Assembly (NCBI RefSeq): GCF_036880985.1
Contig: NZ_JBAJNO010000008.1
Coordinates: forward strand, 1,859,500 to 1,923,499
Origin: Limibacter armeniacum
Lineage (GTDB): Bacteria > Bacteroidota > Bacteroidia > Cytophagales > Flammeovirgaceae
Length of the DNA stretch: 64,000 nt
Direction of reading: 5' to 3'
The notes under the pieces were generated by a model. That model made no database searches. It was not told the DNA's origin and saw nothing but the letters and a program-made list of their open reading frames with translations. Position 1 is the first letter of the stretch; each line of letters begins with the position of its first letter. Positions 1 to 59,933 of the stretch are shown here, piece after piece. A program made the translations under genes and the position numbers.

Positions 1-514
1 GTCAAGCTTCCGTGTGATCCCTAAGATACCTACAACAGATGCCTTTGTCTTGATCCTAGTTTCAGCACTTACAGTCGTATTTGACCTTGCCATTGCAGTG
101 TTTGCTGGTGTTATCGTATCAGCGTTGGTGTTTGCTTGGGAGAGTGCGAAAAGAATTCGTGCCAGAAAGCGTGTTAAAGAAGACGGTACAAAGGTTTATG
201 AAATCTGGGGACCTCTATTCTTTGGTTCTATCAGTGCTTTCAGCAGCAAGTTTGATGTAGCCAATGACCCTGAGAAAATCGAGATCGACTTTATTGAGTC
301 TAAGGTAACAGACCATTCAGGTGTTGAGGCAATCATTAGTATTGTAGAAAAGTATGAAAAGCTAGGTAAGCAAGTGAAGTTGACGCACTTAAGCAGTGAG
401 TGTAAGCAGTTACTTACCAAAGCTAACTATAGCTATAACTTGCATGCCGTGATTGAGGATACTGTAGAGGATCCACGTTACCATGTTGTAGCAGATCACA
501 ATGCGTTTGTATAA
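1..514 (+). CDS. SulP-family anion (sulfate) permease, C-terminal part with STAS domain; 5' end lies upstream of the window
   Basis: The frame is open from base 2. The last TM helix is followed by a STAS-like segment (YEIWGPLFFGS...IDF...VTDHSGVEAI...GKQVKLTHL). A stem-loop terminator follows. Confidence 0.6.
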   Translation, partial: SSFRVIPKIPTTDAFVLILVSALTVVFDLAIAVFAGVIVSALVFAWESAKRIRARKRVKEDGTKVYEIWGPLFFGSISAFSSKFDVANDPEKIEIDFIESKVTDHSGVEAIISIVEKYEKLGKQVKLTHLSSECKQLLTKANYSYNLHAVIEDTVEDPRYHVVADHNAFV

Positions 515-807: not shown

Positions 808-1341
808 TTGGACAATGATGATGTTGGTCGGTGGGGCAAAGTTTGTATAGACTACATTTTTCAGAAAAACCCAAAAAAGATGAAAGAAGACCTCTATTGT
901 ATTGTGTATGTGAGTGAGCAAAGCATTCCTTATGATATGAATATGTTAATTGACCTTGCTGATATATCTGCCATTAAAAATATCTCAATCGGCATAACGG
1001 GTTTTTTGTATTACGATAAAGGATACTTTTTCCAATACTTGGAGGGTGACAGGAAGTATGTAGAACAGTTAATGAGTAAAATAAAGTCAGATCCCACCCA
1101 TAGGTTTATTAACCTGAAAGAAGTGTTACCTTCAAAGGATGGGAAACGGCGTTTTCCTCATTGGTCAATGAGACTCATTAAAAAAGAGTTCATAACTTCT
1201 ATCACAATGGAAAATGTGATTATGGAGTATATGCTGTCTTTTAAGGAGGCAGGGCTAGAATTCAATGAGCATAGTAACATAACACTTGATACCATGTTGC
1301 TGAACATCTCAAAGTTTCAGTCCAAGTATTATATGTACTGA
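808..1341 (+). CDS. BLUF-domain blue-light photoreceptor (short, stand-alone). The start is more probably the ATG at 880 (MKEDLYCIVYVS...).
   Basis: BLUF motifs: LYCIVYVSEQS, NISIGITGFLYYDKGYFFQYLEGDRKYVEQLMSKI, DPTHRF, and the FPHWSM tryptophan region. Confidence 0.75.
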   Translation: MDNDDVGRWGKVCIDYIFQKNPKKMKEDLYCIVYVSEQSIPYDMNMLIDLADISAIKNISIGITGFLYYDKGYFFQYLEGDRKYVEQLMSKIKSDPTHRFINLKEVLPSKDGKRRFPHWSMRLIKKEFITSITMENVIMEYMLSFKEAGLEFNEHSNITLDTMLLNISKFQSKYYMY

Positions 1342-18112: not shown

Positions 18113-18427
18113 TCAATCCTGATCTTCATCCTCGTCTTCCTCTTCCATAAACTCATCTTCATCCTCCATTGAGAAATCATCGCGAAGGTTTCCATCCTCA
18201 TCATAATCATCGTCATCGTCGATGATCTGTTGAGCTTTTTCTTGCGTCATGCGAATCAAGTAGTATACTTCATCCGTCTCAAAGGGAAGCGCAGACACTT
18301 TTGTCCCCTCCTTAGAAGTATAGCTTATCAGATTCGTTGCAAATCCACTAGGATACTCTAGTTTCAGCCTCCCAATAATCTCGTCAGGAAGCATGTGATA
18401 ATCTTTAACGATTCTTTTCTTCTCCAT
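18113..18427 (-). CDS. Small hypothetical protein with a strongly acidic C-terminal tail
   Basis: 104-aa ORF. The last ~45 residues are mostly D/E (DDDDDYDEDG...EEEDEDEDQD). Confidence 0.45.
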   Translation of the reverse strand: MEKKRIVKDYHMLPDEIIGRLKLEYPSGFATNLISYTSKEGTKVSALPFETDEVYYLIRMTQEKAQQIIDDDDDYDEDGNLRDDFSMEDEDEFMEEEDEDEDQD

Positions 18428-18859: not shown

Positions 18860-19114
18860 ATGAATAAAGAAGCCCATTACTTTGAAAAGTTGTCCCTGTC
18901 GAACAAGATCGAAGTGCTGAGGCATTTTGCAGACTATATTGCCCAGTTGGACATCAGCGGTATAAGACATTTTCTGTATTTCTACGACGATGCTTTTATA
19001 GAACTTAGACAACGTCTGGAAGAATCCCCTTTTTCATTAGGGTGTAACGTTTTGGAATCTGATGAACTGCTTAAATATTGTGATTTGGTTGACCTGGATC
19101 AATTGATGGGTTAA
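18860..19114 (+). CDS. Hypothetical small protein
   Basis: 84-aa ORF, convergent with and 6 bp from the next gene. Confidence 0.3.
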   Translation: MNKEAHYFEKLSLSNKIEVLRHFADYIAQLDISGIRHFLYFYDDAFIELRQRLEESPFSLGCNVLESDELLKYCDLVDLDQLMG

Positions 19115-19119
19115 AGGTA

Positions 19120-22100
19120 TCAGCACTTGAACCCAACAATTGTGATGTCATCTCTCTGTGGTATTTCTTTTTGATGATTGGATAGCTCCTGCTCTAATGT
19201 GTCTTTAAAAGATGCAGCGTTATTTTGGTGAAGTTGTGTGATCAGGTTTTCAAACCTTTTTCTTCCAAACTTCAAACTTTCCTTATTCTGTTGATCATAG
19301 AATCCGTCAGTTGACAGAATAAGCCAGTCACCTTTTTTGAGCTTGATTTCTTCCGCCTCAAACCTGTGTTTTTTATTCTGAAGTCCCCCAATCCGTTTTC
19401 TGCTGCCTTTATGGTAATGACATTTTCCTTCTGAAATGATATAAAGACCATTTTTAGCCCCAGAAAAGTGTAGTACTGAACCTTCGGGTGACATCTCTAT
19501 TTTACATATTGCAATATCCATCCCATCTGTGATGCTTGTCTCATGCCTAAACATATAGAGTATTTTACTGTTTAGCTCTTCCAGTATTGCATTAGGTGCA
19601 GTAATACCCCTTTTAACGATGGATTGAATTTCTGAACTGCCAATCATGGAAAGCATAGCACCGGGAACACCGTGACCTGTACAGTCCGCAACGGCTAAAT
19701 ATGCAACAGGCTGATGTGCTTCTTGCGTAGCATACATCCAATAAAAGTCACCCGAAACAATATCCTTTGGCTTGTAAAAGATAAAATGGTCTTCAAAGTA
19801 TTTTTTCATCAGGTCCGGTGTCACCATAATTGCTTTTTGCATGGTTTGGGCATATCGGATACTGTCCCTGATGTTCATATGCTGGTGGTTGATCGTCATT
19901 AGCGCATCGTCAAGCTCATTCTTTACCTTTTCAATTTCTTTCTTTTGTTTTTTGACATTACTGAGAAGCAACCAAAGAATAATGACTGTTAGCACAAGTC
20001 CAACCAAAAAACCGAGGTAGGTTTGAAGTTGCTTGATAAATACTGAGCGTTCTTTTTCTTTTTCCGCAACAACCTGTCGCATTTGGTACTCCCGATCGAT
20101 GATGCTTTTTTCAAGCTCTTCCACGATTCCCATCCAACTGTTGGTCGCATCTTTAGCTTCAGCCTGGCTGGATGCCAATAAACCTTTCAATATGGACAGC
20201 TCTGTTTTGGCTTCTTCAAGTTGTTTTTCGTCCCACAGCGTATTGTTGTTTTTAATTTTTTCCTTGAGTGAAAGAGCATGCTGTTCTAGTAACTCAAAGC
20301 TTGCCTGTCTTTTTTCTGCCAGTTCTTGAATAACCACAATTGACTCTTCATCTTCAGTATCATATTTTTTGATTGTCAGGTTAACCTGATTCCTGTAGGG
20401 ATCAAAATTGGAGAAGATAACTTTACTATTGTGGACTTCAATGGCGTACTCAGGATTAAAGTCCTTATCTACTTTTGCCTTGAAAGCACCATAATTATCA
20501 GTCTTGTAGTACTTTTCCTGTACCTTGACAAATGCATCATGTACAGGCCAACCATCCTCATTTCTGACAATGCCAGTTAGGTACTGATAGGTTTCTTTAG
20601 GAGTTGCAATGATATTGACAAATACCTCACTTTTATCTTTTTGGGTAAATGAAATATTCTCTAACAGGTAGCCGTCAATCAGTATTTTCAGATTGTTGTC
20701 AATACCAACTGCCTCATCAAACCCTATACTGAAGTTTCCATCCTTATCACTTACGGTTTCGTAGAAAACACCTTGCCTGTCTACAATCAAGACTTTGGTT
20801 AATGGAATAGGAGCGTTACCAAGATCTGCAATATGTCCTATAAGGTGTTGCAAGCTTTTGGGTCTAATACTGATTTGAAGCCTTTGGTCAATAATGGACC
20901 ATGTACTGACTGTAAGCTCTTTTTTGAGTAGTTGGATCTTTTGGGGTAATGCCTTTTTTACTTTAAACTTAAAATTGCCTTTCTCATCAGAGGTATAGGT
21001 TTGTCCATCTATCAGGAAACTTAAAGAAGGAATAGGGTAGCCATTGTCATTGAATACTAGTCCTTCAATCTCCGATATATTGTTTTGAAGTGATTTTGGT
21101 TTTGGAATACCCTGATGTTTGCCGAGTAAAGGGTTGTAGGCAGCATCATTCAATATATTGACATTGATGGGAGATTGGGGAGGAGCGGTTCTTCTAGAAG
21201 TGTCAAGGCCAATGGTGAAATCATTTTTCTGTTCTTCAGATGTGTTGCGTAGTGATAACTCAAGGTGTTGGTTCCCCTCTATGTAGATGTTGTCATCTTG
21301 AGCAACTGTCAAGTAATAATTCCCTTCAGCTGGAACGAGTAATTCAAACCTTCCATCATTATTGGTGTAAGATTCATAGAACTCCCCTAGGTGTGTCATT
21401 CGGACTTTGGTGTTGCTTTGTGGTTCCTGCTCCTTATTTACTACGACTCCTGATACTTTAACCTTGTCAAACAAGAAAACACGATAGATATCCAACATTC
21501 CTTTTCCACCCTTTCTAGAAGATGAGAAGTAGGCGATTTTACCATACGTACTGAAATAGATGTCGTCGGCAACAGAATTGATTGGGTACCCCAAATGTTG
21601 TGGCTTACTCCATTTGCCTGTTGATTTGTTGTAAACTGACTTAAAAATATCGTAACCACCAATTGCCCCATGACCTTCTGAACTGAAATAAAGGGTTCCG
21701 TCTTCAGCTATAAATGGTGCATCTTCATTTTTAGAAGTATTCAATTCAGAAAGAGGTGTAACAGGTCCCCATCGTTCGGTATATGGATCTTTCTTTATTT
21801 GAAAAAGGTTCATATCGCTTGTCTCCATTTTACCTTCCCCCATAAATCCTCTTGAGGAAAAAATGATGGTTCTTTCATCTTCAGAAACAAAGCAGTGAGC
21901 CTCTTGCTTTTTGGAGTTGATCTGTTTTAGTGGCGAGGGGGGTGTCCATTGCCCGTTGACTAATTCTGATGTGTAAAGGTCTCCTTCCAAGTAAACAATG
22001 GCTTTTGTATCATTAGCATAGAGTTGAACAGTGGCGGCATTTCCGGTCAGGTTCATTTTGTCTACTTTCGTTGGAGTAAGCCAATTGCCTTTATGGTTCA

Positions 22101-22701
22101 TCTTTGCCTTATAAATACACTCTTCCAAGTTAGATTGATTGTTAGGGAGTTGGCAAGTGAACATGATGGTTTGATGATCCTTTGTTAGGATAATACTGTG
22201 TTCGTTGTTGGGGGAGTTGATCTGCCCTAAATTCCTAACCATGACAGGTACGGGCATACGATAGGCCTCGATGCTTCTCTTAATCTTGCTTTCCAGTTCA
22301 TCGATGTTTTCATTCCCTTGTGGATAGACCTTACTTAAGGTCGTTAACTTCAGTGCCTTGTTGAATTTCTCTAACTGGTAATGAGCTTCTGCCAAGTAAA
22401 AATAGTAATCACGGTTTGCTGATTTTGGTGTGTTGTTCAGTTGGTCTAAAAGTGATAGGGCTTTTTCAGATCTGAATGTCTTCAGGTAACAGATCGCCAA
22501 ATAGAGTTGGATATCCAAATCGTTTGGAGTGTCTTTTAGCAAAAGCTCATAATCGTAGGCGGCTTGTGTGTAGTTTTTTTCTTCAAAACTCTCCCATGCA
22601 TGCTCATGGAGTTTACGGTTATCCTGTGCCTGTGCAATTGATAAGAGAATTAGTTGGGTGAATATGAAAAGAACTATTCTCTTTAAAAGGTAGCTTTGCA
22701 T
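19120..22701 (-). CDS. Transmembrane signalling protein: signal peptide, TPR repeats, TolB/PD40-like beta-propeller and carboxypeptidase-regulatory-like domains (periplasmic), one TM helix, and a cytoplasmic PP2C/SpoIIE-type Ser/Thr phosphatase. The ORF track starts it at 22872; the signal-peptide ATG at 22701 is the more likely start.
   Basis: MQSYLLKRIVLFIFTQLILLSIAQAQ signal peptide. TPR region. PD40-like repeats (YFSSEGHGAIGGYDIF, YFSSSRKGGKGMLDIY). TM helix (LGFLVGLVLTVIILWLLL). PP2C motifs (VSGDFYWM, AVADCTGHGVPGAMLS, DGMDIAICKIE, LSTDGFYDQ, DDITIVGFK). Confidence 0.8.
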   Translation of the reverse strand: MQSYLLKRIVLFIFTQLILLSIAQAQDNRKLHEHAWESFEEKNYTQAAYDYELLLKDTPNDLDIQLYLAICYLKTFRSEKALSLLDQLNNTPKSANRDYYFYLAEAHYQLEKFNKALKLTTLSKVYPQGNENIDELESKIKRSIEAYRMPVPVMVRNLGQINSPNNEHSIILTKDHQTIMFTCQLPNNQSNLEECIYKAKMNHKGNWLTPTKVDKMNLTGNAATVQLYANDTKAIVYLEGDLYTSELVNGQWTPPSPLKQINSKKQEAHCFVSEDERTIIFSSRGFMGEGKMETSDMNLFQIKKDPYTERWGPVTPLSELNTSKNEDAPFIAEDGTLYFSSEGHGAIGGYDIFKSVYNKSTGKWSKPQHLGYPINSVADDIYFSTYGKIAYFSSSRKGGKGMLDIYRVFLFDKVKVSGVVVNKEQEPQSNTKVRMTHLGEFYESYTNNDGRFELLVPAEGNYYLTVAQDDNIYIEGNQHLELSLRNTSEEQKNDFTIGLDTSRRTAPPQSPINVNILNDAAYNPLLGKHQGIPKPKSLQNNISEIEGLVFNDNGYPIPSLSFLIDGQTYTSDEKGNFKFKVKKALPQKIQLLKKELTVSTWSIIDQRLQISIRPKSLQHLIGHIADLGNAPIPLTKVLIVDRQGVFYETVSDKDGNFSIGFDEAVGIDNNLKILIDGYLLENISFTQKDKSEVFVNIIATPKETYQYLTGIVRNEDGWPVHDAFVKVQEKYYKTDNYGAFKAKVDKDFNPEYAIEVHNSKVIFSNFDPYRNQVNLTIKKYDTEDEESIVVIQELAEKRQASFELLEQHALSLKEKIKNNNTLWDEKQLEEAKTELSILKGLLASSQAEAKDATNSWMGIVEELEKSIIDREYQMRQVVAEKEKERSVFIKQLQTYLGFLVGLVLTVIILWLLLSNVKKQKKEIEKVKNELDDALMTINHQHMNIRDSIRYAQTMQKAIMVTPDLMKKYFEDHFIFYKPKDIVSGDFYWMYATQEAHQPVAYLAVADCTGHGVPGAMLSMIGSSEIQSIVKRGITAPNAILEELNSKILYMFRHETSITDGMDIAICKIEMSPEGSVLHFSGAKNGLYIISEGKCHYHKGSRKRIGGLQNKKHRFEAEEIKLKKGDWLILSTDGFYDQQNKESLKFGRKRFENLITQLHQNNAASFKDTLEQELSNHQKEIPQRDDITIVGFKC

Positions 22702-22905
22702 GGTGAAATGAGTCATCAAGGTAGAAGTAGTCATTACATCTGTCGACTTTATTATGATTGATTTTAGCTCGTATTGAAGGGGAGTGATGGTTCTTTTGAA
22801 ATTATTAATAAATGGGATAGGATTTAGACAGTTGTAATAAATGAGCCGGAAAAGTAGAAGAGAGAAGGTCAAGTAAAGTGTTAGGTATTGATTGAGTACA
22901 AAAAA

Positions 22906-22942
22906 AACTCACCAAAGAGATATCCTTTGGTGAGTTTTACAT
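22906..22942 (-). terminator. Terminator of the AzgA-like permease gene (minus strand)
   Basis: ACTCACCAAAG-agatatc-CTTTGGTGAGT; on the minus strand it is followed by TTTTTTTG. Confidence 0.7.
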
Positions 22943-34256: not shown

Positions 34257-37200
34257 ATGTCAACAATAGATACGGCGGAAGAAACCAAAAAAGAAACACA
34301 ACTGGACAGCGGAACCTATGAGATTCTTCGCAAGCGATTAGGGTCGCAGGCAGAAGAGCTACAGTCCCGACTGAATAAGCTGAACAGCGCAAGAAAGGAG
34401 ATTTTCGGAGCCTTGGATGCACGTTTGCTGGCAACCGACCGTATCTCGACAGACAATAACTGCGTGCCGAGGGATATGGTACCTGTACTGGAAAACCTCT
34501 TTATCTTCGGTTACAACGTTCATATTGGACTTAAGAAGGAAGCTGCACTGAGTGATGTTTTCAGTGTTTACGCTTACAATAGCACAGATCATTCCTTTCA
34601 TCCTAAAGATTTGAATATCCTTCATGATAAGACATTTGAGAAGGAGTTCAAGGAATTGTATCAGTATTACCGTGATACAGTTTTTGTAAAGTTTTTTGTA
34701 AAGGACAATTTCCTGTACATGATCTTCCGTGTCGGCAAGAATGTAACCGACATCAAAGCCTTCAAATGGCTGATTGAAGAGAATGGGCTGAAATATATAG
34801 ATAATAGAAGTGACCATGAGGTACAGTATCCACGTCAGCATGAGTTTGAGTGGAAGCGTGCTTCAAGAGATGATCACCGCACAGGAGAACACCCGCATGT
34901 GTCCATTATGGATAGGGTATTTGTGGAAACGGTAGGTGGTGACCTGACTATTAAGATTGAGGATAATACTTCAACGGGAGAGGGAATCTATGCGGAAGAG
35001 GTGGAAATTGCTGATCAGACACTGGACGATGCAGAAATCTATTATGCTGATCTGGGTAATCTGATTCTTCTGAAAATGAGACCATTTCAGGAGAAAAAAT
35101 GGCGCTTTATCGTATTCAACGACAAGATAAAGGAAGCTCGCCGAATTGATGCCATTGAAGATTCATGCGTGTTGCTGCCTGATGATCAGGGCATCATTGT
35201 GTCCAATGGTTATTACCTTCAGACGGGTGAGTACAAGCATTTTGATAGCGAGCTTACTGGGTTAAAATTTGAACGTCGTATCCACTCTCCAAATGGGGAG
35301 GACACAATGTATGTGTTCTATCAGCGAGAGCTGGGCGAATATATTCTGCTTTCCTACAATGTGATCGAGAAGCAGGTGGAAAGCCCGATTGCCTGTCATG
35401 GTTATTCCTTCTTCAAAAGTGGTGAACTGGTTTACTTCAAGACTGATGATGAACCGAAGAAGATTCACGGCTTGCAGGTTTGGCAAACACCGTATGTGCA
35501 CCCTGATTTTGTGCAGGCACCTGCACATGCTGATTCCTTCCTGTATAAGGTGGGGAACAAGGACATTGTAAGGGCAATGTCAGATTGTTATGCAGTACTG
35601 AATCTTTGCCGAAAGGAAGATTCTTACGAAGGTTTGTATGCAGATTTGTCAAGGTCTGCGATGGCGGTAACGGACAATTACTACTGGGTAGGTAATGAGG
35701 AAGCATTTGAGCTTTCGGACACACTTAGTGAAATTCGCTTGACAGCTTCTACGGCAATCGAAGAGTTTGAGAAAGTGGCAAGACAGCGTAAGCATGCTGC
35801 CGAACAAACCAAGCTGATTTCAGAGAAAGCAGATGAGCTGCTGAAAGAAGTCGATCGTCGTATCTTCCAGCATGTGGACGAGTTTGTCCGTTTCCTAGCC
35901 GAACTGAGAACGGTAAGGGGAGAAGTGATTTCCCTGAAAGAAGTACGCTATGTGGACCTTTCACTGGTTGATCACTATGAAACGGCATTGGCTGAGAAAT
36001 CCGATAAGCTTTCTGCCAAGTGTGTAGAGTTCCTGCTTCGTGATGACGCCTTGCTACCTTATGTAGAAAAGGTGGAAGCTGTACAGGAAGAAGCAGAAGC
36101 AGTGGAGAAAGTGACGGTAGCCGATGAAGTGGCGGAAGGAATTGCCAAAATTGGCAGTGAGCTGGAGTTACTGATCGATATCGTCTCCAATCTGAAAATT
36201 GAGGATGCGACCCAGACAACACAAATTATTGACCTGATCTCTGATATTTATGCAAGGCTGAACAATGTGAAAGCCAAGCTAAAGGCAAGGAGAAAAGAAC
36301 TGTTGGGAGCGGAAGCCATTGCGGAGTTCAATGCACAGTTGAAACTGATCAATCAGGCAGTTGTCAACTATCTGGATGTTTCAGATACACCACAGAAATG
36401 TGAGGAATACCTGACTAAGCTGATGGTTCAGATGGAAGAGCTGGAAGGCAAGTTCTCGGACTTTGATGAGTTCTTGGGCGAACTGACAGCCAAGCGTGAT
36501 GAAATCTATTCTGCATTTGAAACCCGCAAGACGCAACTTCAGGAGGAGCGAAACAAGCGTGCCATGTCGGTTCAGTCGGCAGCGGAGCGTATCCTGAAAG
36601 GAATCCGCAACAAGCTGAAATCCATCAAGGAGATCAACGAGATCAATTCCTACTTTGCTTCTGACCTAATGGTGGACAAGGTGCGTGACATGATCAAGAA
36701 GCTCCATGAGATTGAGGATGCGCCTAAGGCAGAAGACCTGCAAAGTCAGCTCAAGACCCTGAAGGAAGATGCTGTACGTCAGTTAAAAGACCGTCAGGAT
36801 CTGTTTGTAGGAGGTGACAATGTCATCAAGATGGGACGTCACCATTTTGCGGTCAATACACAGGAATTGGATGCTTCATTGGTATTGAAGGATGATGGAT
36901 TCTTTTACCATTTGGCAGGAACTCAGTTCTATGAGAAAGTGATCAATGAGCAACTGGAGCAAACCCGTGAGGTGTGGCAACAGTCTGTGATTTCAGAAAA
37001 TAAAACGGTTTACCGTGGCGAGTATTTGGCTTATCAGCTATTCAGGGCAATTGAAAACGGTGCTGCCAATACTACATTTAATGAGTTTCAGGAAAAGGAT
37101 GATACTGAAAGGCTCGAAGTGGTACAAGCATTTATGGCATCCCGTTACCATGAAGGTTATACCAAAGGGGTGCACGACAAGGATGCCTTGCTGATACTGG

Positions 37201-39191
37201 AGGCCTTGGTGCTGATGCGCATGAATATTGGCTTGCTCCGTTACAGCCCAGATGCAAGGGCTACAGCAGCCCTGTTTTGGTCAGAAGGCATGGAAAAGGC
37301 AGATAAGCAGCAGCTTGAAAACCGCATCAAGGGCATGTCCCTGATCTTGCAGGTATTCCCTGATTCCAAAGAATACCAATCACTGATTGAGGATTTGGAA
37401 GAGGATATGACCGTCTTTGCCAAAAGCTTGACTTCAGCCCTTCAGTCAACAGCAAAGGAAGCAGCGGCTTATCTGTTCCACGAATTGGCAACCGATACAG
37501 ATTTTATCGCAAGTAAGGAAGCCACACAACTGTGCAAGCAGTTCCTGCAGCATATCGAGATGAAACGGGTACAGCGAGACTATGAGGAAACAAAAAGAAA
37601 ACTGAAAGAAACCGACCTTTTGCACCGACTGGAATGGGAATTGGGTTGGCTGAATGCTTTTGCTTCCACCTTGCCTGAAGAAGAGCAAACGGTTTACGCC
37701 GATTACCTGTCAGAAGCCGCCGTGATTTTGTTGCTTGATGACCTGAACAGCCGAAAGGTTTCCCAATTGTCCGTCAAGCAGGAACTGAAAGGGCTGGCAG
37801 GAGATCATGCAGTCATTACGCAAAGCCAATATCAGTTTGATTACAATGCCTTGATGGAAAAGCTTCAGTCATTCGAAGCCATTCAGGTGCCGAAGTTTGA
37901 GGCATTTATCAATCTGAAGAAAGAAATTGCAGCAGACTTCAAAGCCAAGGTCAAGCTGGACAGCTTTAAGCCGAGAGTGCTTTCCTCCTTTGTCCGCAAC
38001 AAGCTGATCGATGATGTGTACCTGCCATTGGTCGGGGATAACCTTGCCAAGCAGATGGGTACCGTCGGGGAAAACAAACGTACCGACCTGATGGGCTTGC
38101 TTTTGCTGGTTTCGCCTCCGGGTTATGGTAAAACCACCCTGATGGAATATATCGCCAGCCGATTGGGACTGATCTTTATGAAAATCAACGGTCCTGCCAT
38201 CGGGCATCAGGTTACTTCGCTGGATCCTTCGGAAGCACCGAATGCGACCGCAAGGGAAGAATTAGAGAAACTGAACCTCTCCTTCGAGATGGGCGACAAT
38301 GTCATGATCTACCTGGATGATATTCAGCACTGCCACCCTGAACTGCTGCAGAAGTTTATCTCACTTTGTGACGGTCAGCGTAAGATCGAAGGGGTGTACA
38401 AGGGCGTAACCAAAACCTACGATTTCCGAGGAAAGAAAGTCTGTGTCGTGATGGCAGGTAACCCGTACACCGAAAGCGGTGATAAATTCCAGATTCCGGA
38501 CATGCTGGCAAACAGGGCAGATACCTACAACCTCGGTGAGATTATCGGTGATTCGGCTGAGGCATTCAAGCTGAGTTATATTGAAAACTCCCTGACCTCA
38601 AACCCTGTCCTGAACAAGCTGACAAGTAAAAGCAAAAAGGATATCTATACGCTGATCAATATCGCCAAGACAGGCAACAGGGAAGGAGCTGAGTTTGAAT
38701 CCAATATCTCAGGAGAGGAAGTCAATGAGTTTGTGTCGGTGCTTGAAAAGATGCTGAAAGTGCAGGAAGTGGTGCTGCAGGTCAATCAGCAATACGTGCG
38801 TTCGGCAGCGCAGGAAGACGCTTACCGTACAGAACCGCCATTCAAGATGCAAGGATCTTACCGTAACATGAATAAGCTGGCAGAGAAGATTGTCCCAATC
38901 ATGAATACACAGGAACTGGATACACTGATCCTTTCCCATTATGAAGGAGAATCACAGACCTTGACCACAGGAGCTGAAGCCAATATGCTGAAGTTTAAGT
39001 CACTTGTAGGTTGGCAGTCAAATGAGGAAAACCAACGTTGGGATGTTATCTGTCAGACATTCAAGAAGAACAACCAGCTGAAAGGTTTTGGTGACAATAA
39101 CCAGATGGCACAGGTACTGGCACAGATGTCTGCATTTACGGATGGGCTGGAAGCGATTAAGAAAGCATTGGAAAACGGATTAAAAAACTAA
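34257..39191 (+). CDS. Giant 1644-aa protein with a dynein-related AAA+ ATPase domain (AAA_5/MoxR-like) near the C-terminus; N-terminal 1250 aa are uncharacterised beta-rich and long helical/coiled-coil regions
   Basis: Walker A (LLLVSPPGYGKTTLMEY), Walker B (VMIYLDDIQHCHPE), the AAA_5-type motif (VCVVMAGNPYTESGDKFQIPDMLANRAD), and long heptad-like helical stretches between residues ~480 and 1250. Confidence 0.7.
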   Translation: MSTIDTAEETKKETQLDSGTYEILRKRLGSQAEELQSRLNKLNSARKEIFGALDARLLATDRISTDNNCVPRDMVPVLENLFIFGYNVHIGLKKEAALSDVFSVYAYNSTDHSFHPKDLNILHDKTFEKEFKELYQYYRDTVFVKFFVKDNFLYMIFRVGKNVTDIKAFKWLIEENGLKYIDNRSDHEVQYPRQHEFEWKRASRDDHRTGEHPHVSIMDRVFVETVGGDLTIKIEDNTSTGEGIYAEEVEIADQTLDDAEIYYADLGNLILLKMRPFQEKKWRFIVFNDKIKEARRIDAIEDSCVLLPDDQGIIVSNGYYLQTGEYKHFDSELTGLKFERRIHSPNGEDTMYVFYQRELGEYILLSYNVIEKQVESPIACHGYSFFKSGELVYFKTDDEPKKIHGLQVWQTPYVHPDFVQAPAHADSFLYKVGNKDIVRAMSDCYAVLNLCRKEDSYEGLYADLSRSAMAVTDNYYWVGNEEAFELSDTLSEIRLTASTAIEEFEKVARQRKHAAEQTKLISEKADELLKEVDRRIFQHVDEFVRFLAELRTVRGEVISLKEVRYVDLSLVDHYETALAEKSDKLSAKCVEFLLRDDALLPYVEKVEAVQEEAEAVEKVTVADEVAEGIAKIGSELELLIDIVSNLKIEDATQTTQIIDLISDIYARLNNVKAKLKARRKELLGAEAIAEFNAQLKLINQAVVNYLDVSDTPQKCEEYLTKLMVQMEELEGKFSDFDEFLGELTAKRDEIYSAFETRKTQLQEERNKRAMSVQSAAERILKGIRNKLKSIKEINEINSYFASDLMVDKVRDMIKKLHEIEDAPKAEDLQSQLKTLKEDAVRQLKDRQDLFVGGDNVIKMGRHHFAVNTQELDASLVLKDDGFFYHLAGTQFYEKVINEQLEQTREVWQQSVISENKTVYRGEYLAYQLFRAIENGAANTTFNEFQEKDDTERLEVVQAFMASRYHEGYTKGVHDKDALLILEALVLMRMNIGLLRYSPDARATAALFWSEGMEKADKQQLENRIKGMSLILQVFPDSKEYQSLIEDLEEDMTVFAKSLTSALQSTAKEAAAYLFHELATDTDFIASKEATQLCKQFLQHIEMKRVQRDYEETKRKLKETDLLHRLEWELGWLNAFASTLPEEEQTVYADYLSEAAVILLLDDLNSRKVSQLSVKQELKGLAGDHAVITQSQYQFDYNALMEKLQSFEAIQVPKFEAFINLKKEIAADFKAKVKLDSFKPRVLSSFVRNKLIDDVYLPLVGDNLAKQMGTVGENKRTDLMGLLLLVSPPGYGKTTLMEYIASRLGLIFMKINGPAIGHQVTSLDPSEAPNATAREELEKLNLSFEMGDNVMIYLDDIQHCHPELLQKFISLCDGQRKIEGVYKGVTKTYDFRGKKVCVVMAGNPYTESGDKFQIPDMLANRADTYNLGEIIGDSAEAFKLSYIENSLTSNPVLNKLTSKSKKDIYTLINIAKTGNREGAEFESNISGEEVNEFVSVLEKMLKVQEVVLQVNQQYVRSAAQEDAYRTEPPFKMQGSYRNMNKLAEKIVPIMNTQELDTLILSHYEGESQTLTTGAEANMLKFKSLVGWQSNEENQRWDVICQTFKKNNQLKGFGDNNQMAQVLAQMSAFTDGLEAIKKALENGLKN

Positions 39192-39247
39192 TCAGACATT
39201 GTTCTGATAGCAGGAAATATATTATCAATCATTAAAACTAAATAGAA

Positions 39248-39622
39248 ATGGACAAGGAAAGGTTATATGACGCATTCGGAGAGCTGTTGTATGCAGTAGC
39301 TTTGGCTGATGGAATGATCCAACCAGAAGAAATCAATAAAATTGAGCAAGTGTTGGCTAATCATTCTTGGGGTAGGGAAATCGAGTGGTCATTCAACTAT
39401 GAAAAAAACAAGAACAATGACCCAAAGCAAGTGTATGAAAAAGCACTTGACACATTGAAACAACATGGGCCTGATCCTGAGTATACATTCCTGATTGAGA
39501 TTTTGGAAGAAGTAGCAAGAGCAAGTGACGGAATTGACGAATCAGAAGACAAGGTGATTTCAGATATGCAGTCATCACTCAAAATGCACTTTATTCAGCA
39601 GGTAGAAGATATGAAGCTGTAA
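39248..39622 (+). CDS. TerB-family (tellurite-resistance TerB-like) small protein
   Basis: LYDAFGELLYAVALADGMIQPEEINKIEQVL is the TerB N-terminal helix-pair signature. It lies 57 nt after the giant ATPase gene and shares its terminator. Confidence 0.65.
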   Translation: MDKERLYDAFGELLYAVALADGMIQPEEINKIEQVLANHSWGREIEWSFNYEKNKNNDPKQVYEKALDTLKQHGPDPEYTFLIEILEEVARASDGIDESEDKVISDMQSSLKMHFIQQVEDMKL

Positions 39623-39677: not shown

Positions 39678-41318
39678 CTAATTGATGTCACTATACGTTA
39701 TGTTTAAAGCATTCAGAATTTCATCGGCTGGAATAATAAAAGTAATTCCTTCTACGCCTTGCCCCACAACTTTGGCATCAATGACACCAATAACTTTACC
39801 ATTATAGATTAATGGACCACCGCTATTCCCAGGGCTTATACTTACATCGGATTGCAAGAATGTTTTTTCCTCAATAGTACGTTTTCCACTGATCATACCT
39901 TTTGAAAGTGTCTGACCTAACGTGATATCAGCAGGAGTGCCAATTGCGATCACAGAAGTTCCTAATTTTACATCATCAGTAGAAATAGGAAGAGGTTTGA
40001 TTACATGATCTATTTTTAAAAGAGCTAAATCTCTTTGTGCATTATAATTAATCAATTTAGCTTCTAGTTTTTGGTCGTTGGAAAGGATGACTTCTAGAGA
40101 ATCCACATCTTCAATTACATGGTAATTAGTGATGATATAACCATCTTCACTGATAGCGAAACCACTACCATGACCTGCTTCTGTATTGACTGTGACAACA
40201 GAATTTACTAAGTCTTCAAACTCTTCTGATATAGGAATGTTTTTTTGTATAGTAATTTTCTGCTCTAAGCTTGTTTCAACACTTTTGTTAGTTAATTCAT
40301 AAAGCTCTGAAGATGTATTTAAAAATTCATGAAAGTTTTGGCTGAATACATTCTCAAAAACACTTCTGATATCTGTAGAAATATTAAACCCTTTGGTACT
40401 AATTTTTTTCTCCATTAGAGTGTTATTAGTTCTTCTCAGTTTTACTTTCCAAATAACTTCAATATTGGATTGAATTGGATATATATCAGCATTGGCATAT
40501 TTTGTAGTTACACTATTGAAGAATTTAGTTACTTCTGCAGTAATGATATACCTTGGTAGCTTTAATGGAGTGAGTGTATTTTTTGATTCAAAATCCGGTA
40601 CTTGAAAGTTTAAATCTTCTAATGACTCATTCACTGCTTTCTCTAATTCAAAATCCTTGAATTGTATGTCTTTTTCCCAATCAATAGTTCTACTATAGCT
40701 GTTATAAGTGATTTTACCAGCTTTTTCCCCCTCTTTCAAATTAATATTGACTTCACTGCAGAATATCAAATCTGTTACATCTTCAACCTTTTTATTTTTT
40801 TTGTAAATCGGTAATGTTAATTCTGAAGACAGATAATCATAAGCCTTTTTATTCGAAGTGATTATATCAATAACGAATGGAAGAGAGAAGCCTATGGCGT
40901 AACTAGAAAGTGCCATTGTAGGGTTTTCATCGTCAATATTGAGTGCTAAGCCTAAACCACCTGGTCCGGTGAGTACGCTCCCTAACCAGGTATTTCCCAA
41001 AGTTGAAGTTGCACGGGTTCTATGTGTAGGAACTTCTATAGTAGTTGTCTCATAACCTTCTTTTGCTAAGGATATATGTAATGGGGCTTCATGCCTTTCA
41101 ACTTTTACCTTCAGTGGCGTTTCACCTACATATTCATGATCAATATAGACCTTAGCGTTAGGTTCATTAGATTTAACTTGTATTTTCTGTTTATGCCCTA
41201 ACATAATTGTATGGCATCCAGTTAAAAAAAGTAGAGGAATCAATAAAAAAGTTATAAATCTCATTTTTTGAATTTTAATTGAATGATAAAAAGGCTTCGT
41301 CAACATGAAGAGCCTCAT
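39678..41318 (-). CDS. Lipoprotein with a PEGA-like domain and a C-terminal trypsin-like (S1) serine peptidase domain; no PDZ domain
   Basis: Lipobox (LFLTGC), PEGA-like KVYIDHEYVGETPLKVKV, catalytic triad contexts (TNYHVIED; DLALLKID; GNSGGPLI). Confidence 0.75.
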   Translation of the reverse strand: MRLFMLTKPFYHSIKIQKMRFITFLLIPLLFLTGCHTIMLGHKQKIQVKSNEPNAKVYIDHEYVGETPLKVKVERHEAPLHISLAKEGYETTTIEVPTHRTRATSTLGNTWLGSVLTGPGGLGLALNIDDENPTMALSSYAIGFSLPFVIDIITSNKKAYDYLSSELTLPIYKKNKKVEDVTDLIFCSEVNINLKEGEKAGKITYNSYSRTIDWEKDIQFKDFELEKAVNESLEDLNFQVPDFESKNTLTPLKLPRYIITAEVTKFFNSVTTKYANADIYPIQSNIEVIWKVKLRRTNNTLMEKKISTKGFNISTDIRSVFENVFSQNFHEFLNTSSELYELTNKSVETSLEQKITIQKNIPISEEFEDLVNSVVTVNTEAGHGSGFAISEDGYIITNYHVIEDVDSLEVILSNDQKLEAKLINYNAQRDLALLKIDHVIKPLPISTDDVKLGTSVIAIGTPADITLGQTLSKGMISGKRTIEEKTFLQSDVSISPGNSGGPLIYNGKVIGVIDAKVVGQGVEGITFIIPADEILNALNITYSDIN

Positions 41319-41325
41319 TTTTAAA

Positions 41326-42933
41326 TTAGTTGATACTGCTATATTTAATATTTAAACCTCTAAATATTTCATTGATAGGTATGATAAATGTAATGCCTTC
41401 AATCCCATTACCCACCATTTTTGCATCGACAATCCCGATTACTTTTCCTTCATAGAGCAGGGGACCACCACTATTTCCTGGGCTTATACTGACATCTGAT
41501 TGTAGGTATTGTTTTTCATCAATCTTACGTTTGCCACTGATCATACCTTTTGATAGGGTTTGACCTAATGCAATATCAGCAGGTGTACCTATGGCAATTA
41601 CTGAGGCTCCAAGTTTAACTGATTCTTTTGAAAGCGGTAAAGGTTTTATAGTATGGTCTATTTTCAGAAGTGCCAAATCTCTCTCTGAGTTGAAGTTTAT
41701 TAGTTTTGCTTCATATTTTTCATTATTAGAAAGAATTACTTCCAATGTGTCGACATCTGCTACAACATGAAAGTTTGTGATAATATAACCATCCTCACTG
41801 ATAGCAAAGCCACTTCCATGACCTGTATTGGTATTGACAGTTACAGCTGATTGTATCCAATCTTCTGCTTCATTAGATACGGGAATACCATCAGGAATTG
41901 AAACTGAAGTTGTCAGTCTCTGACTTTTCTTTTTTACAACTAATTCATAGAACTCGGGAGTAATATTAAGGAACTGGTAAAAGCTATATTCAAAAGTTTT
42001 CTTAAAGGCATCTCTTACTTCTTTGGATGGTGTGTAGTTTTGAACCTTTACAGCTTTTTCAATCAAAACTTCTTCAGTCTTTCTTTTCAGAACCTTCCAT
42101 GTTACTTCAAGGTCAGTTGTCAATGCATAATGTTCAGCGTTTCTTTCTCTAGCGACAGATCTTTGCCCAATGTTGAAAGTAACATGATTGTAGACTTTAG
42201 TTACTTCAGCCTTCAGTATATACCTTGGTAAAAGAATCGGTTGTAATGCTCCTTTTACTTCAAAGTCAGGGACTTTAAATCCATATTTGTCTAATTCCGT
42301 ATTTACGGTTTTTTCTAACTCAAAATCTTGAAAAGTAATATCTTCTTGCCAATCTATTTCTTTAGAGATATTTCCATATTTTACTTTTCCTGCTTCTTCT
42401 CCTTCTTTTAAATCTACTGATACAGAAGTACAGAATATCAAATCTGTTTCTACTTTAATTGTGTCAGGTTTTTTATAGATTGGTAAATTAAGTTCAGAGT
42501 TTAGATATTGGTATTTAGCTCCGGAGTATTTGTCTATTAAAAAAGCTGCAGTAATACCTGTTGCTTGAATGCCTAAATTTAATCCAAAAGTTTCTTCAGA
42601 GTTAGTTGCTCCTACCATACTTGAACCTAAAGCACCTACGATACCACCTAATATTACATTTCCGACAATAGCGTTTCCTTGTAGCCTTTTATAGGATGGA
42701 ATTACATAAGTCGCAGAGTCATAACCATCTTTTGATAAAGTAATGTTGAGGGGTTTTTCTTGTCTTTTAATTCTTTTTTTAAAAGGAGTGACTCCAACAT
42801 ATTCATTATCTATATAGATTTCGGCTTTTTCTATGTTAGAGTCAATACTGATTTTTTGTTTTGTGCCATGAATAATAGTTTGGCAGCTAGATAATAGAGT
42901 TAATACTGATAGTAGAATTGTAGAAAGTTTCAT
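41326..42933 (-). CDS. Tandem paralogue of the preceding PEGA-trypsin lipoprotein
   Basis: Same architecture (lipobox LLSSC; EIYIDNEYVGVTPFKKRI; TNFHVVAD; DLALLKID; GNSGGPLL). About 60% identity to its neighbour across the protease domain. Confidence 0.75.
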   Translation of the reverse strand: MKLSTILLSVLTLLSSCQTIIHGTKQKISIDSNIEKAEIYIDNEYVGVTPFKKRIKRQEKPLNITLSKDGYDSATYVIPSYKRLQGNAIVGNVILGGIVGALGSSMVGATNSEETFGLNLGIQATGITAAFLIDKYSGAKYQYLNSELNLPIYKKPDTIKVETDLIFCTSVSVDLKEGEEAGKVKYGNISKEIDWQEDITFQDFELEKTVNTELDKYGFKVPDFEVKGALQPILLPRYILKAEVTKVYNHVTFNIGQRSVARERNAEHYALTTDLEVTWKVLKRKTEEVLIEKAVKVQNYTPSKEVRDAFKKTFEYSFYQFLNITPEFYELVVKKKSQRLTTSVSIPDGIPVSNEAEDWIQSAVTVNTNTGHGSGFAISEDGYIITNFHVVADVDTLEVILSNNEKYEAKLINFNSERDLALLKIDHTIKPLPLSKESVKLGASVIAIGTPADIALGQTLSKGMISGKRKIDEKQYLQSDVSISPGNSGGPLLYEGKVIGIVDAKMVGNGIEGITFIIPINEIFRGLNIKYSSIN

Positions 42934-48274: not shown

Positions 48275-48303
48275 TCAAAACCTAGATTTATAATTTATCA
48301 ATA

Positions 48304-58956: not shown

Positions 58957-59016
58957 TGCTGTTTAGATATTCTTTAGGTTCACCGCTAAGGTGAGAAGCG
59001 AGTAAATGAGTTCTCT

Positions 59017-59928: not shown

Positions 59929-59933
59929 ACAAG

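What the first reader, a model, noticed from the sequence alone, without database searches (positions are those of the whole stretch)
19120..22701. Periplasmic TPR/beta-propeller sensor fused through one TM helix to a PP2C phosphatase
The N-terminal 850 aa (TPR, PD40/TolB-like propeller, carboxypeptidase-regulatory-like beta-sandwiches) have the same build as the OmpA-family protein at 59934. Here, instead of an OmpA domain, the protein crosses the membrane once and ends in a SpoIIE/PP2C phosphatase.

This looks like a domain swap that turns an envelope-structural architecture into a transmembrane signalling phosphatase. It could be the input of a partner-switching pathway, although no anti-sigma or anti-anti-sigma gene is adjacent. 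The ORF track's 57-aa N-terminal extension (start 22872) has no signal peptide; the internal ATG at 22701 gives a clean signal peptide.
Basis: partly seen in the sequence, partly recalled or inferred. Interest (0 to 1): 0.55.

Follow-up and report, generated by a model that had tools for sequence, protein, structure and literature searches.

The report
PorE-like sensor fused to PP2C phosphatase
This gene encodes a single-pass inner-membrane protein whose large periplasmic part copies the head of PorE/CHU_0125-type outer-membrane tethers and whose cytoplasmic end is an intact PP2C serine/threonine phosphatase. The combination was found in only about five related marine Cytophagales genomes, and it may relay an envelope signal into the cell.

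Summary
The ORF at 19120-22701 (-) is real. The ATG at 22701 is the start NCBI uses (Limibacter armeniacum, "SpoIIE family protein phosphatase", 1193 aa).

The protein has a signal peptide, a PorE/CHU_0125-like head (TPR, about five-bladed PD40 propeller, CRD sandwich; aa 26-530) and three more CRD-like sandwiches. A roughly 105-aa helical stalk, one TM helix (aa 895-914, positive-inside) and a helical linker follow. It ends in a PP2C domain with all metal-binding aspartates, closest to the solved SiaA PP2C domain.

Similarity to the OmpA paralogue at 59934 covers only about 500 aa at 23% identity, not 850 aa. The rest (aa 544-1192) matches a separate family of about 710 aa: CRD, stalk, TM, PP2C. 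So a PorE-like head was added to an existing phosphatase chassis.

An exhaustive search of 1.84 billion representatives found four full-length clusters: Limibacter, Flammeovirga, Sediminitomix (two tandem copies) and one metagenome contig. No STAS or kinase partner lies in the window or beside any member.

The propeller is the best-conserved periplasmic domain. Ligand and substrate remain inferred. This is a new variant of a known kind, of moderate interest.

The parts
19120..22701 (-). Whole gene (1193 codons plus stop at 19120-19122): PorE-like-head transmembrane PP2C phosphatase
   Evidence: ORF listing. Identical 1193-aa NCBI protein. Four full-length homologue clusters.
22627..22701 (-). 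Signal peptide, aa 1-25 (MQSYLLKRIVLFIFTQLILLSIAQA|QD)
   Evidence: Hydrophobic segment aa 4-24. All six family members have an N-terminal hydrophobic segment followed by Q.
22252..22626 (-). TPR-like helical domain, aa 26-150
   Evidence: Pfam TPR_19/ANAPC3. Seven helices at pLDDT above 90 in model m4bd3359686b1.
21472..22251 (-). PD40/TolB-type beta-propeller (about 5 blades), aa 151-410; the most conserved periplasmic domain
   Evidence: Pfam PD40 and NCBIfam PorE/CHU_0125 models. Model pLDDT above 90. Foldseek matches to TolB 2ojh and five-bladed propellers, TM about 0.5 on target length. 46-55% identity within the family.
21202..21471 (-). CRD1, carboxypeptidase-regulatory-like beta-sandwich, aa 411-500; last domain of the PorE-like head
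   Evidence: Pfam CarboxypepD_reg 4.8e-16. PorE model reaches position 504. Structure model.
21082..21201 (-). Linker with the conserved INxN...NPLLG motif, aa 501-540
   Evidence: Columns invariant between P0001 and P0002. Short strand and helix in the model.
20347..21081 (-). Three further CRD-like beta-sandwiches (CRD2-4), aa 541-785
   Evidence: Internal repeats, E 5e-6 to 5e-4. Pfam CooC_C/TTR-52 weak hits. Beta-sandwiches in the model. Homologous to the N-terminus of the ~710-aa family.
20023..20346 (-). Periplasmic helical stalk, aa 786-893; proline-free, 42% charged or Gln
   Evidence: Composition. Helices 785-817 and 825-958 in the full-length model.
19957..20022 (-). Single transmembrane helix, aa 894-915, followed by KKQKKEIEKVK
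   Evidence: Kyte-Doolittle peak 2.7; 6 K/R in the 15 residues after it. Conserved in all six members.
19807..19956 (-). Cytoplasmic helical linker, aa 916-965, continuous with the TM helix
   Evidence: Helix 825-958 at pLDDT 88-96. 34-52% identity in the family. Aligns to the solved SiaA construct 6k4e from aa 924.
19123..19806 (-). PP2C/SpoIIE phosphatase domain, aa 966-1193, with GDFY, DCTGHG, TDGxxDQ and RDD motifs
   Evidence: Pfam SpoIIE 5e-23. PDB 6k4e (SiaA PP2C) E 9.4e-33. pLDDT above 90. Motifs invariant in six members.
22904..22938 (-). Intrinsic-terminator-like hairpin of the upstream permease gene; argues against the TTG 22872 start
   Evidence: Terminator scan and sequence.
18860..19114 (+). 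84-aa acidic ORF convergent with the phosphatase gene (stop codons 5 bp apart); possible accessory gene, linkage weak
   Evidence: Only neighbour shared with the closest homologue's locus (40% identity, E 8e-17). Absent from the Flammeovirga and Sediminitomix loci. No family hit.

Best explanation
The gene encodes a type-I (N-out, C-in) inner-membrane sensor phosphatase of the RsbU/SpoIIE (PPM) class.

After signal-peptide cleavage, about 870 residues lie in the periplasm. They form a PorE/CHU_0125-like head (TPR, PD40 propeller, CRD), held on three CRD-like spacer domains and a helical stalk of about 105 residues. The stalk runs as one helix through the membrane into a cytoplasmic linker and a catalytically intact PP2C domain.

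Proposed mechanism: the head, chiefly the propeller, binds an envelope partner near the outer membrane or peptidoglycan. By analogy with PorE, this partner would be a PorP/SprF-type barrel or another outer-membrane component. Occupancy or displacement changes the packing of the stalk, TM and linker helices in a dimer. That switches the PP2C domain on or off, as in other RsbU-type phosphatases. The phosphatase then dephosphorylates a phospho-Ser/Thr protein encoded elsewhere (STAS-type or SiaC-type).

Shown here: domain composition, predicted topology, intact catalytic motifs, conservation pattern, rarity, and chimeric origin (PorE-like head plus a CRD-stalk-TM-PP2C chassis).

Inferred: the ligand, dimerisation, the direction of regulation and the substrate.
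For: Architecture:
- Pfam and NCBIfam hits.
- Confident model of the periplasmic part, pLDDT 83, pTM 0.71: TPR helices, propeller, four sandwiches.
- PP2C and linker at pLDDT above 90, with a continuous helix 825-958 through the membrane.

Topology:
- Two hydrophobic segments only.
- K/R-rich C-flank of the TM.
- Same layout in all six members.

Catalysis:
- 6k4e (SiaA PP2C) at E 9.4e-33.
- GDFY, DCTGHG, TDGxxDQ and RDD motifs conserved.

Constraint on the sensor:
- Propeller 46-55% identical within the family, against 14-43% for the other periplasmic domains and 34-46% for PP2C.
- The head keeps the nearly invariant residues of PorE/CHU_0125-like heads.
- It is 36-38% identical to OmpA-type heads, against 38-48% among fusion heads.

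Real gene family, not an artefact:
- Limibacter, Flammeovirga aprica and sp. SJP92, Sediminitomix flava (two tandem copies) and one metagenome contig.

Chassis:
- The ~710-aa family aligns to aa 544-1192 in one stretch.

Literature:
- The PorE WD40 domain is implicated in binding PorP (PMC12773672).
- PorE, PorP and a type-B cargo form a complex (PMC9143113).
- Linker-mediated dimerisation controls RsbU-type PPM phosphatases that carry exchangeable sensor domains (PMC12143880).
- Chlamydia RsbU is described as the sensor phosphatase of a partner-switching mechanism (abstract of PMC11619594); that it is transmembrane with a periplasmic sensor domain is from my own knowledge.
Against: - No substrate or kinase gene (STAS, DUF1987/SiaC, HATPase_c_2) was found in the 64-kb window or within 10 kb of any family member. 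The output pathway is unknown.
- No porP/sprF gene is adjacent to any member. The closest OmpA-type relatives are stand-alone genes, not porP-linked. The PorP-partner idea therefore rests on analogy only.
- The PorE model score (129 bits) is far below NCBI's cutoff of 600.
- Flammeovirga pacifica carries a 378-aa head-less version at the orthologous locus. The phosphatase can evidently exist without the head.
- Topology comes from hydropathy and charge rules, not a dedicated predictor.
- Dimerisation was not modelled.
Confidence: 0.62

Rival explanations
1. Envelope-integrity sensor. The head does not dock on a T9SS PorP-like barrel. Like CHU_0125-type proteins, it monitors general outer-membrane or peptidoglycan organisation, and the phosphatase reports envelope damage or changes in periplasm width.
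For: - The closest head relatives are stand-alone ~680-710-aa OmpA proteins not linked to porP.
- The NCBIfam CHU_0125 'outer membrane integrity' model hits at 7e-33.
- Loss of CHU_0125 causes outer-membrane defects and vesiculation (PMC5891637).
- No member has a porP neighbour.
Against: - The peptidoglycan-binding OmpA_C domain that defines those proteins is absent.
- What CHU_0125-type heads bind is itself unknown.
- The PorE model scores slightly better than the CHU_0125 model (129 against 114 bits).
Confidence: 0.25
2. Mainly a structural inner-membrane-to-outer-membrane tether. The PP2C domain would be a vestigial or purely scaffolding cytoplasmic anchor with no signalling role.
For: - The head family is otherwise always joined to wall-binding domains (OmpA or SPOR) in the top hits.
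- The estimated length of spacers plus stalk could span the periplasm (inference).
Against: - All metal-binding and catalytic motifs are invariant in six members that are only 33-42% identical overall.
- The PP2C domain and cytoplasmic linker are among the best-conserved parts.
- The same chassis occurs without the head.
Confidence: 0.06
3. Annotation or assembly artefact: two genes (a PorE-like protein and a PP2C phosphatase) joined by a frameshift, misassembly or read-through.
For: No positive evidence. Raised only because the architecture is very rare, with 4 clusters among 1.84 billion representatives.
Against: - There is an uninterrupted 1193-codon frame.
- The same co-linear architecture appears in five independent assemblies from three genera, with tandem paralogues in one.
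- Homology is continuous across the junctions.
Confidence: 0.02

Closest known systems
[quoted passage not shown]
   Same: Same order of TPR, beta-propeller and CRD in the first ~500 residues. The NCBIfam PorE model is covered from position 5 to 504 of 648 at E 1.8e-37. The head lies in the periplasm. The propeller is the conserved element, and in PorE it is implicated in PorP binding (PMC12773672).
   Different: - No OmpA_C peptidoglycan-binding domain, which is essential for PorE function and conserved in almost all PorE homologues (PMC12773672).
- No lipoprotein signal.
- Anchored in the inner membrane by a TM helix, and ends in a phosphatase.
- No porP neighbour.
- Score far below the family cutoff.
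CHU_0125-family OmpA-like outer-membrane integrity proteins (Cytophaga hutchinsonii) and their stand-alone relatives in Flexithrix, Chondrinema and Reichenbachiella
   Same: These are the closest sequence relatives of the head: 36-40% identity over aa ~10-500. They are stand-alone genes without a porP neighbour.
   Different: They end in OmpA (or SPOR) wall-binding domains at about 680-760 aa. They have no TM helix, stalk or phosphatase.
SiaA of Pseudomonas aeruginosa (SiaABCD biofilm pathway; PDB 6k4e)
   Same: Best solved relative of the C-terminal 270 residues (E 9.4e-33) and best NCBIfam hit (3.4e-54). Membrane-bound PP2C with the same metal-binding residues, including the third-metal TDGxxDQ site described in PMC7647112.
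   Different: SiaA has two membrane-spanning regions and a HAMP domain, and no large periplasmic module. It is encoded with its kinase SiaB, substrate SiaC and cyclase SiaD. None of these is present here. Score 184 against a cutoff of 700.
RsbU-type sensor phosphatases (B. subtilis RsbU/RsbP; Chlamydia trachomatis RsbU, which from my own knowledge has a periplasmic sensor domain)
   Same: Modular build of N-terminal sensor, helical linker and PPM domain. The linker-dimerisation switch is proposed as general (PMC12143880). Chlamydia RsbU is a sensor phosphatase of a partner-switching mechanism (PMC11619594).
   Different: The sensor module here (PorE-like head plus four Ig-like sandwiches plus a long stalk) is not among the described sensor types (PAS, GAF, REC, HAMP, RsbT-binding). 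No RsbV or RsbW genes are nearby.
Uncharacterised ~710-aa Bacteroidota phosphatases (P0280, P0291, P0305, P0322, P0327 and others)
   Same: Signal peptide, three CRD-like sandwiches, helical stalk, one TM and PP2C. They align to aa 544-1192 of this protein in a single stretch.
   Different: They lack the TPR-propeller-CRD head. They are only about 29-33% identical, so they share the chassis but are not the immediate parent.

Membership tests
SpoIIE/PP2C (PPM) phosphatases, Pfam PF07228 | Domain score above the curated cutoff | tested here: met
   82.5 bits against a cutoff of 25, aa 1002-1190. PDB 6k4e at E 9.4e-33.
SpoIIE/PP2C (PPM) phosphatases, Pfam PF07228 | Conserved metal-coordinating aspartates (GDFY, DxxGHG, TDG, DD motifs) | tested here: met
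   D985, D1006, D1132/D1136 and D1184/D1185 are present and invariant in six family members.
SpoIIE/PP2C (PPM) phosphatases, Pfam PF07228 | Metal-dependent phospho-Ser/Thr phosphatase activity | not testable with these tools
   Needs an enzyme assay.
PorE family T9SS protein (NCBIfam NF052230) | Full-length score above the curated cutoff | tested here: not met
   129 bits against a cutoff of 600. Only model positions 5-504 of 648 are matched.
PorE family T9SS protein (NCBIfam NF052230) | TPR, beta-propeller and CRD domain order | tested here: met
PorE family T9SS protein (NCBIfam NF052230) | [quoted passage not shown] | tested here: not met
   No OmpA hit. The C-terminus is TM plus PP2C.
PorE family T9SS protein (NCBIfam NF052230) | Binding to a PorP/SprF barrel; porP-like gene often adjacent | tested here: not met
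   Adjacency is absent in the window and in L001, L006 and L007. Physical binding cannot be tested here.
CHU_0125 family OmpA-like protein (NCBIfam NF053607) | Score above cutoff and an OmpA domain | tested here: not met
   114 bits against a cutoff of 620. Model positions 8-484 of 639 only; no OmpA domain.
SiaA (NCBIfam NF038263) | Equivalog score; two TM segments plus HAMP plus PP2C; siaBCD operon | tested here: not met
   184.5 bits against a cutoff of 700. Only model positions 388-656 matched. One TM after a signal peptide and no HAMP. No SiaB, SiaC or SiaD-like neighbours.
Partner-switching module (RsbU-RsbV-RsbW type) | STAS-type phosphoprotein substrate and RsbW-type kinase in the genome, usually nearby | tested here: inconclusive
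   None in the 64-kb window or within 10 kb of the four other loci. Close PP2C relatives are also orphans. The rest of the genome could not be searched.
Type-I single-pass membrane sensor (N-out, C-in) | Cleavable signal peptide plus one TM helix with a positive-inside flank | tested here: met
   Hydropathy and charge analysis. Conserved in six members, each with Q after the predicted cleavage site. No dedicated topology predictor was available.

The most novel reading that the evidence does not exclude
The protein is a trans-envelope reporter of the type IX secretion and gliding surface machinery. Its PorE-like propeller docks on a PorP/SprF-type outer-membrane barrel that carries a type-B CTD adhesin. 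Adhesin load or surface contact is then transmitted mechanically down the Ig-like spacers and stalk to switch a cytoplasmic PP2C. This would give Bacteroidota an outer-membrane-to-cytoplasm signalling route that uses neither a two-component system nor an ECF sigma/anti-sigma pair.
Probability: 0.12. Interest if true: 0.8.

Novelty: new variant of a known kind. Interest (0 to 1): 0.45.

Why it matters
Sensor-PP2C phosphatases are a known class. What their extracytoplasmic sensors detect is rarely known. No T9SS-type module has been reported as such a sensor: a library search for papers mentioning both 'type IX secretion' and PP2C returned only two PorX/PorY papers.

PorE-like heads are otherwise joined to peptidoglycan-binding domains and act as passive tethers. 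Finding one wired to a phosphatase suggests the head recognises a specific, conserved envelope partner that can serve as a signal.

The small family offers natural comparison material: full-length, tandem-duplicated, head-less and chassis-only variants. These could be used to identify what PorE/CHU_0125-type propellers bind.

The limits are narrow taxonomic spread (a few Flammeovirgaceae-like Cytophagales) and an unknown substrate.

Tried and rejected
1. A full-length AlphaFold run on a mixed alignment (A2) modelled the N-terminus badly (pLDDT 60). PP2C-only rows had been aligned into the propeller columns. A re-run on aa 26-800 with head-only and chassis rows gave a good model.

2. The STAS hit at 14-514 looked like a possible partner. 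It is the C-terminal STAS of a SulP/DauA-type transporter cut by the window edge, so it was rejected.

3. The 84-aa convergent ORF was tested as a conserved partner. It is conserved only in the closest homologue's locus. It is absent from the Flammeovirga and Sediminitomix loci, and no homologues were found by word search. It is kept only as a side observation.

4. A Bacteroidota -7 promoter motif (TAnnTTTG) was sought upstream of 22701 on the minus strand. There was no hit, and the motif is not enriched in the window.

5. The in-window OmpA paralogue was tested as donor of the head. It was rejected: 23% identity, against 36-40% to stand-alone relatives in other genera.

6. The contexts of the closest head relatives and closest PP2C relatives were checked for porP, STAS or kinase genes. 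None was found.

7. The AFDB Foldseek library was unavailable. The PDB Foldseek search gave only generic propeller and Ig-tandem matches.

8. One literature search ('PorE-like') was wasted on 'pore-like' hits.


Full report
**1. What is in the sequence**

The minus-strand ORF 19120..22872 is real. Its first in-frame start, TTG 22872, lies 23 nt after a strong terminator-like hairpin (22938-22904, 15-bp stem, T-run). That hairpin closes the upstream xanthine/uracil-permease gene. The 57 codons that follow have no hydrophobic segment.

The ATG at 22701 opens with MQSYLLKRIVLFIFTQLILLSIAQA|QD. It yields a 1193-aa protein identical in sequence and length to the NCBI entry 'SpoIIE family protein phosphatase [Limibacter armeniacum]'.

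**2. Domain anatomy**

Pfam finds these domains:
- TPR, aa 39-145.
- PD40, aa 320-353.
- CarboxypepD_reg, aa 416-468, plus weaker sandwich hits at about 630-760.
- SpoIIE, aa 1002-1190.

NCBIfam is more specific:
- Aa 15-496 cover positions 5-504 of the 648-position PorE-family T9SS model (1.8e-37).
- The same region covers positions 8-484 of the CHU_0125 OmpA-like model (7e-33).
- Aa 921-1192 cover positions 388-656 of the 658-position SiaA model (3.4e-54).
- All three scores lie far below the curated full-length cutoffs.

Internal comparison shows four related CRD-like sandwiches at about aa 414-500, 545-612, 620-700 and 708-780. A proline-free, highly charged segment of about 105 residues follows.

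A structure prediction of aa 26-800 on a clean alignment was confident (mean pLDDT 83, pTM 0.71). It shows seven TPR-type helices, a propeller of about five blades and four beta-sandwiches. Foldseek against the PDB returns TolB and five-bladed propellers for the propeller (TM about 0.5 on target length), and Ig-tandem pilins for the sandwiches. No solved structure shares the whole build.

The full-length model is poor in the N-terminus because of an alignment artefact. It gives pLDDT above 90 for the linker and PP2C domain, and a single helix from aa 825 to 958 that passes through the membrane segment.

**3. Topology**

Only two segments exceed a 19-residue Kyte-Doolittle mean of 1.4. They are aa 4-24 and aa 895-914 (peak 2.7). 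The next best segment anywhere scores 1.1. The 15 residues after the second segment hold six Lys/Arg (KKQKKEIEKVK).

With a cleaved signal peptide, aa 26-893 lie in the periplasm and aa 916-1193 in the cytoplasm. All six family members share this layout. Each has Gln right after the predicted cleavage site. From my own knowledge, this fits the Bacteroidota preference for Gln at +1 of signal peptidase I substrates.

The caveat is that no dedicated predictor was available.

**4. The phosphatase looks active**

The best solved relative is the PP2C domain of P. aeruginosa SiaA (6k4e, E 9.4e-33, aa 924-1192). The alignment conserves GDFY, DC(T/A)GHGVPGA, STDGFxDQ and QRDDIT. According to the SiaA structure paper (PMC7647112), the metals are held by conserved aspartates, and D600, D604 and D534 hold a third metal. 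All four motifs are invariant in six family members that are otherwise only 33-42% identical.

**5. Relation to the OmpA protein at 59934, and origin of the fusion**

The protein starting at 59934 carries two tandem PorE-like units followed by OmpA, and it has no stop before the window ends. It follows a PorP/SprF gene (59017-59928) and a 2755-aa adhesin with a T9SS type-B sorting domain. This is the cargo-PorP-PorE-like arrangement described for gliding Bacteroidota (PMC9143113).

It aligns to the phosphatase protein only over aa ~8-500, at 23% identity (E 3e-20). Much closer heads (36-40% identical) belong to stand-alone ~680-760-aa OmpA proteins. These come from Flexithrix, Chondrinema, Reichenbachiella and others, and their genes are not next to porP. 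Some relatives carry SPOR instead of OmpA.

The remaining 650 residues (aa 544-1192) align in one stretch to an independent family of about 710 aa. That family consists of a signal peptide, three CRD-like sandwiches, a stalk, one TM and PP2C. The gene is therefore best read as a PorE/CHU_0125-like head placed in front of a pre-existing CRD-stalk-TM-PP2C phosphatase. It is not the in-window OmpA gene with its last domain swapped.

**6. Distribution**

A word-indexed search of 5.8 billion proteins found one other full-length relative. An exhaustive HMMER pass over 1.84 billion 50%-identity representatives found four full-length clusters:
- L. armeniacum.
- A metagenome contig (P0002, 42% identity).
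- Flammeovirga aprica and F. sp. SJP92 (36%).
- Sediminitomix flava (33%).

S. flava has two tandem copies. The called start of P0002 is too short; an upstream ATG restores a signal peptide.

Flammeovirga pacifica carries a 378-aa version at the same DUF4625-FUSC-[gene]-ABC locus as F. aprica. It consists of a signal peptide, about 45 residues, a TM and PP2C. Head-less variants therefore exist naturally.

Within the family the propeller is the most conserved periplasmic domain (46-55% identity). The other periplasmic domains are 14-43% identical. The cytoplasmic linker (34-52%) and PP2C domain (34-46%) are also well conserved. Fusion heads are each other's nearest relatives (38-48%), but barely more so than OmpA-type heads (36-38%). 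They keep the nearly invariant residues of that head family.

**7. Partners**

No STAS antagonist, SiaC-like protein or RsbW/SiaB-type kinase was found among the main ORFs of the 64-kb window. The one STAS hit is the tail of a SulP transporter. None lies within 10 kb of the other four loci. The closest PP2C relatives are likewise orphans.

The only neighbour shared with the nearest homologue is an 84-aa acidic ORF. It is convergent with the phosphatase gene, and the two stop codons are 5 bp apart (40% identity, E 8e-17). It is absent from the Flammeovirga and Sediminitomix loci and has no family hit. Any functional link is weak.

**8. Mechanism proposed**

Shown: an N-out, C-in sensor phosphatase with an intact active site and a constrained propeller head.

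Inferred:
- The head binds an envelope component near the outer membrane. By analogy with PorE, whose WD40 domain is implicated in PorP binding (PMC12773672), the partner could be a PorP/SprF-type barrel. Alternatively it could be whatever CHU_0125-type heads recognise when they maintain outer-membrane integrity (PMC5891637).
- Four Ig-like sandwiches plus a stalk of about 105 residues could plausibly bridge much of the periplasm. This is a rough estimate from domain counts and was not measured.
- The continuous stalk-TM-linker helix is the kind of element through which RsbU-type PPM phosphatases are switched by linker-mediated dimerisation, with exchangeable sensors (PMC12143880).
- The substrate would be a phospho-Ser/Thr regulator encoded elsewhere.

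I put about 0.6 on this signalling reading as a whole. Within it, the split between a PorP-type and a general envelope partner is roughly even.

**9. Comparison with what is known, and novelty**

Transmembrane sensor-PP2C phosphatases are known. Examples are membrane-bound SiaA, which has two membrane-spanning regions and a HAMP domain (PMC7647112), and Chlamydia RsbU (PMC11619594). Many Bacteroidota relatives carry TPR, GAF, PAS, REC or 7TMR-DISM sensors.

PorE-like heads are also known. Their OmpA_C domain is described as essential and almost universally conserved (PMC12773672).

The combination was not found in the searchable literature. It fails the membership tests for PorE, CHU_0125 and SiaA, and passes that for PPM phosphatases. 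It is a new variant of a known kind.

It is already in databases under a generic name. It is taxonomically narrow and of moderate interest. Its main value is as a lead to what PorE/CHU_0125-type propellers recognise.

Noticed in passing
window 18860-19114 (+): 84-aa acidic ORF convergent with the phosphatase gene, with stop codons 5 bp apart. It is the only neighbour conserved at the closest homologue's locus (L001 8533-8781, 40% identity). It has no family hit and is absent from the Flammeovirga and Sediminitomix loci.
   Followed up: partly
window 50689-64000 (+): A complete T9SS type-B cargo set: a 2755-aa adhesin with a type-B sorting domain (TIGR04131), a PorP/SprF gene (59017-59928), and an OmpA protein with two tandem PorE-like units (59934 onward) that has no stop before the window ends.
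   Followed up: partly
L007 10001-13666 and 13814-17476 (Sediminitomix flava): Two tandem paralogues of the PorE-like-head PP2C gene (1221 and 1220 aa). Their heads are 57% identical.
   Followed up: partly
L004 8001-9137 (Flammeovirga pacifica) compared with L006 3333-6968 (F. aprica): At the same DUF4625-FUSC-[gene]-ABC locus, F. pacifica has a 378-aa head-less phosphatase (signal peptide, ~45 aa, TM, PP2C). F. aprica has the full 1211-aa form.
   Followed up: partly
window 1-514 and 808-1341 (+): The window starts inside a SulP/DauA-type transporter, so only its C-terminal STAS domain is present. A BLUF blue-light sensor protein follows.
   Followed up: partly
window 18113-18427 (-): 104-aa protein ending in a long Asp/Glu-rich tail. 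No family hit in Pfam or NCBIfam.
   Followed up: no
window 39678-42933 (-) and 34257-39622 (+): Two tandem PEGA plus trypsin-like peptidase paralogues lie in a 33-35% GC stretch. Next to them, a 43-46% GC stretch encodes a 1644-aa DUF3686/DUF7902/AAA ATPase and a TerB protein. This is a sharp compositional step.
   Followed up: no
window 46340-50220 (+): Tandem pair of DUF3857 proteins. The first also has a transglutaminase-like core domain and the second a weak DUF3858 hit.
   Followed up: no
L001 4826-4906: The called start of homologue P0002 is too far downstream. An upstream in-frame ATG adds a signal peptide (MNFLAFVLYSCFISISVFSPSYG|QG).
   Followed up: yes
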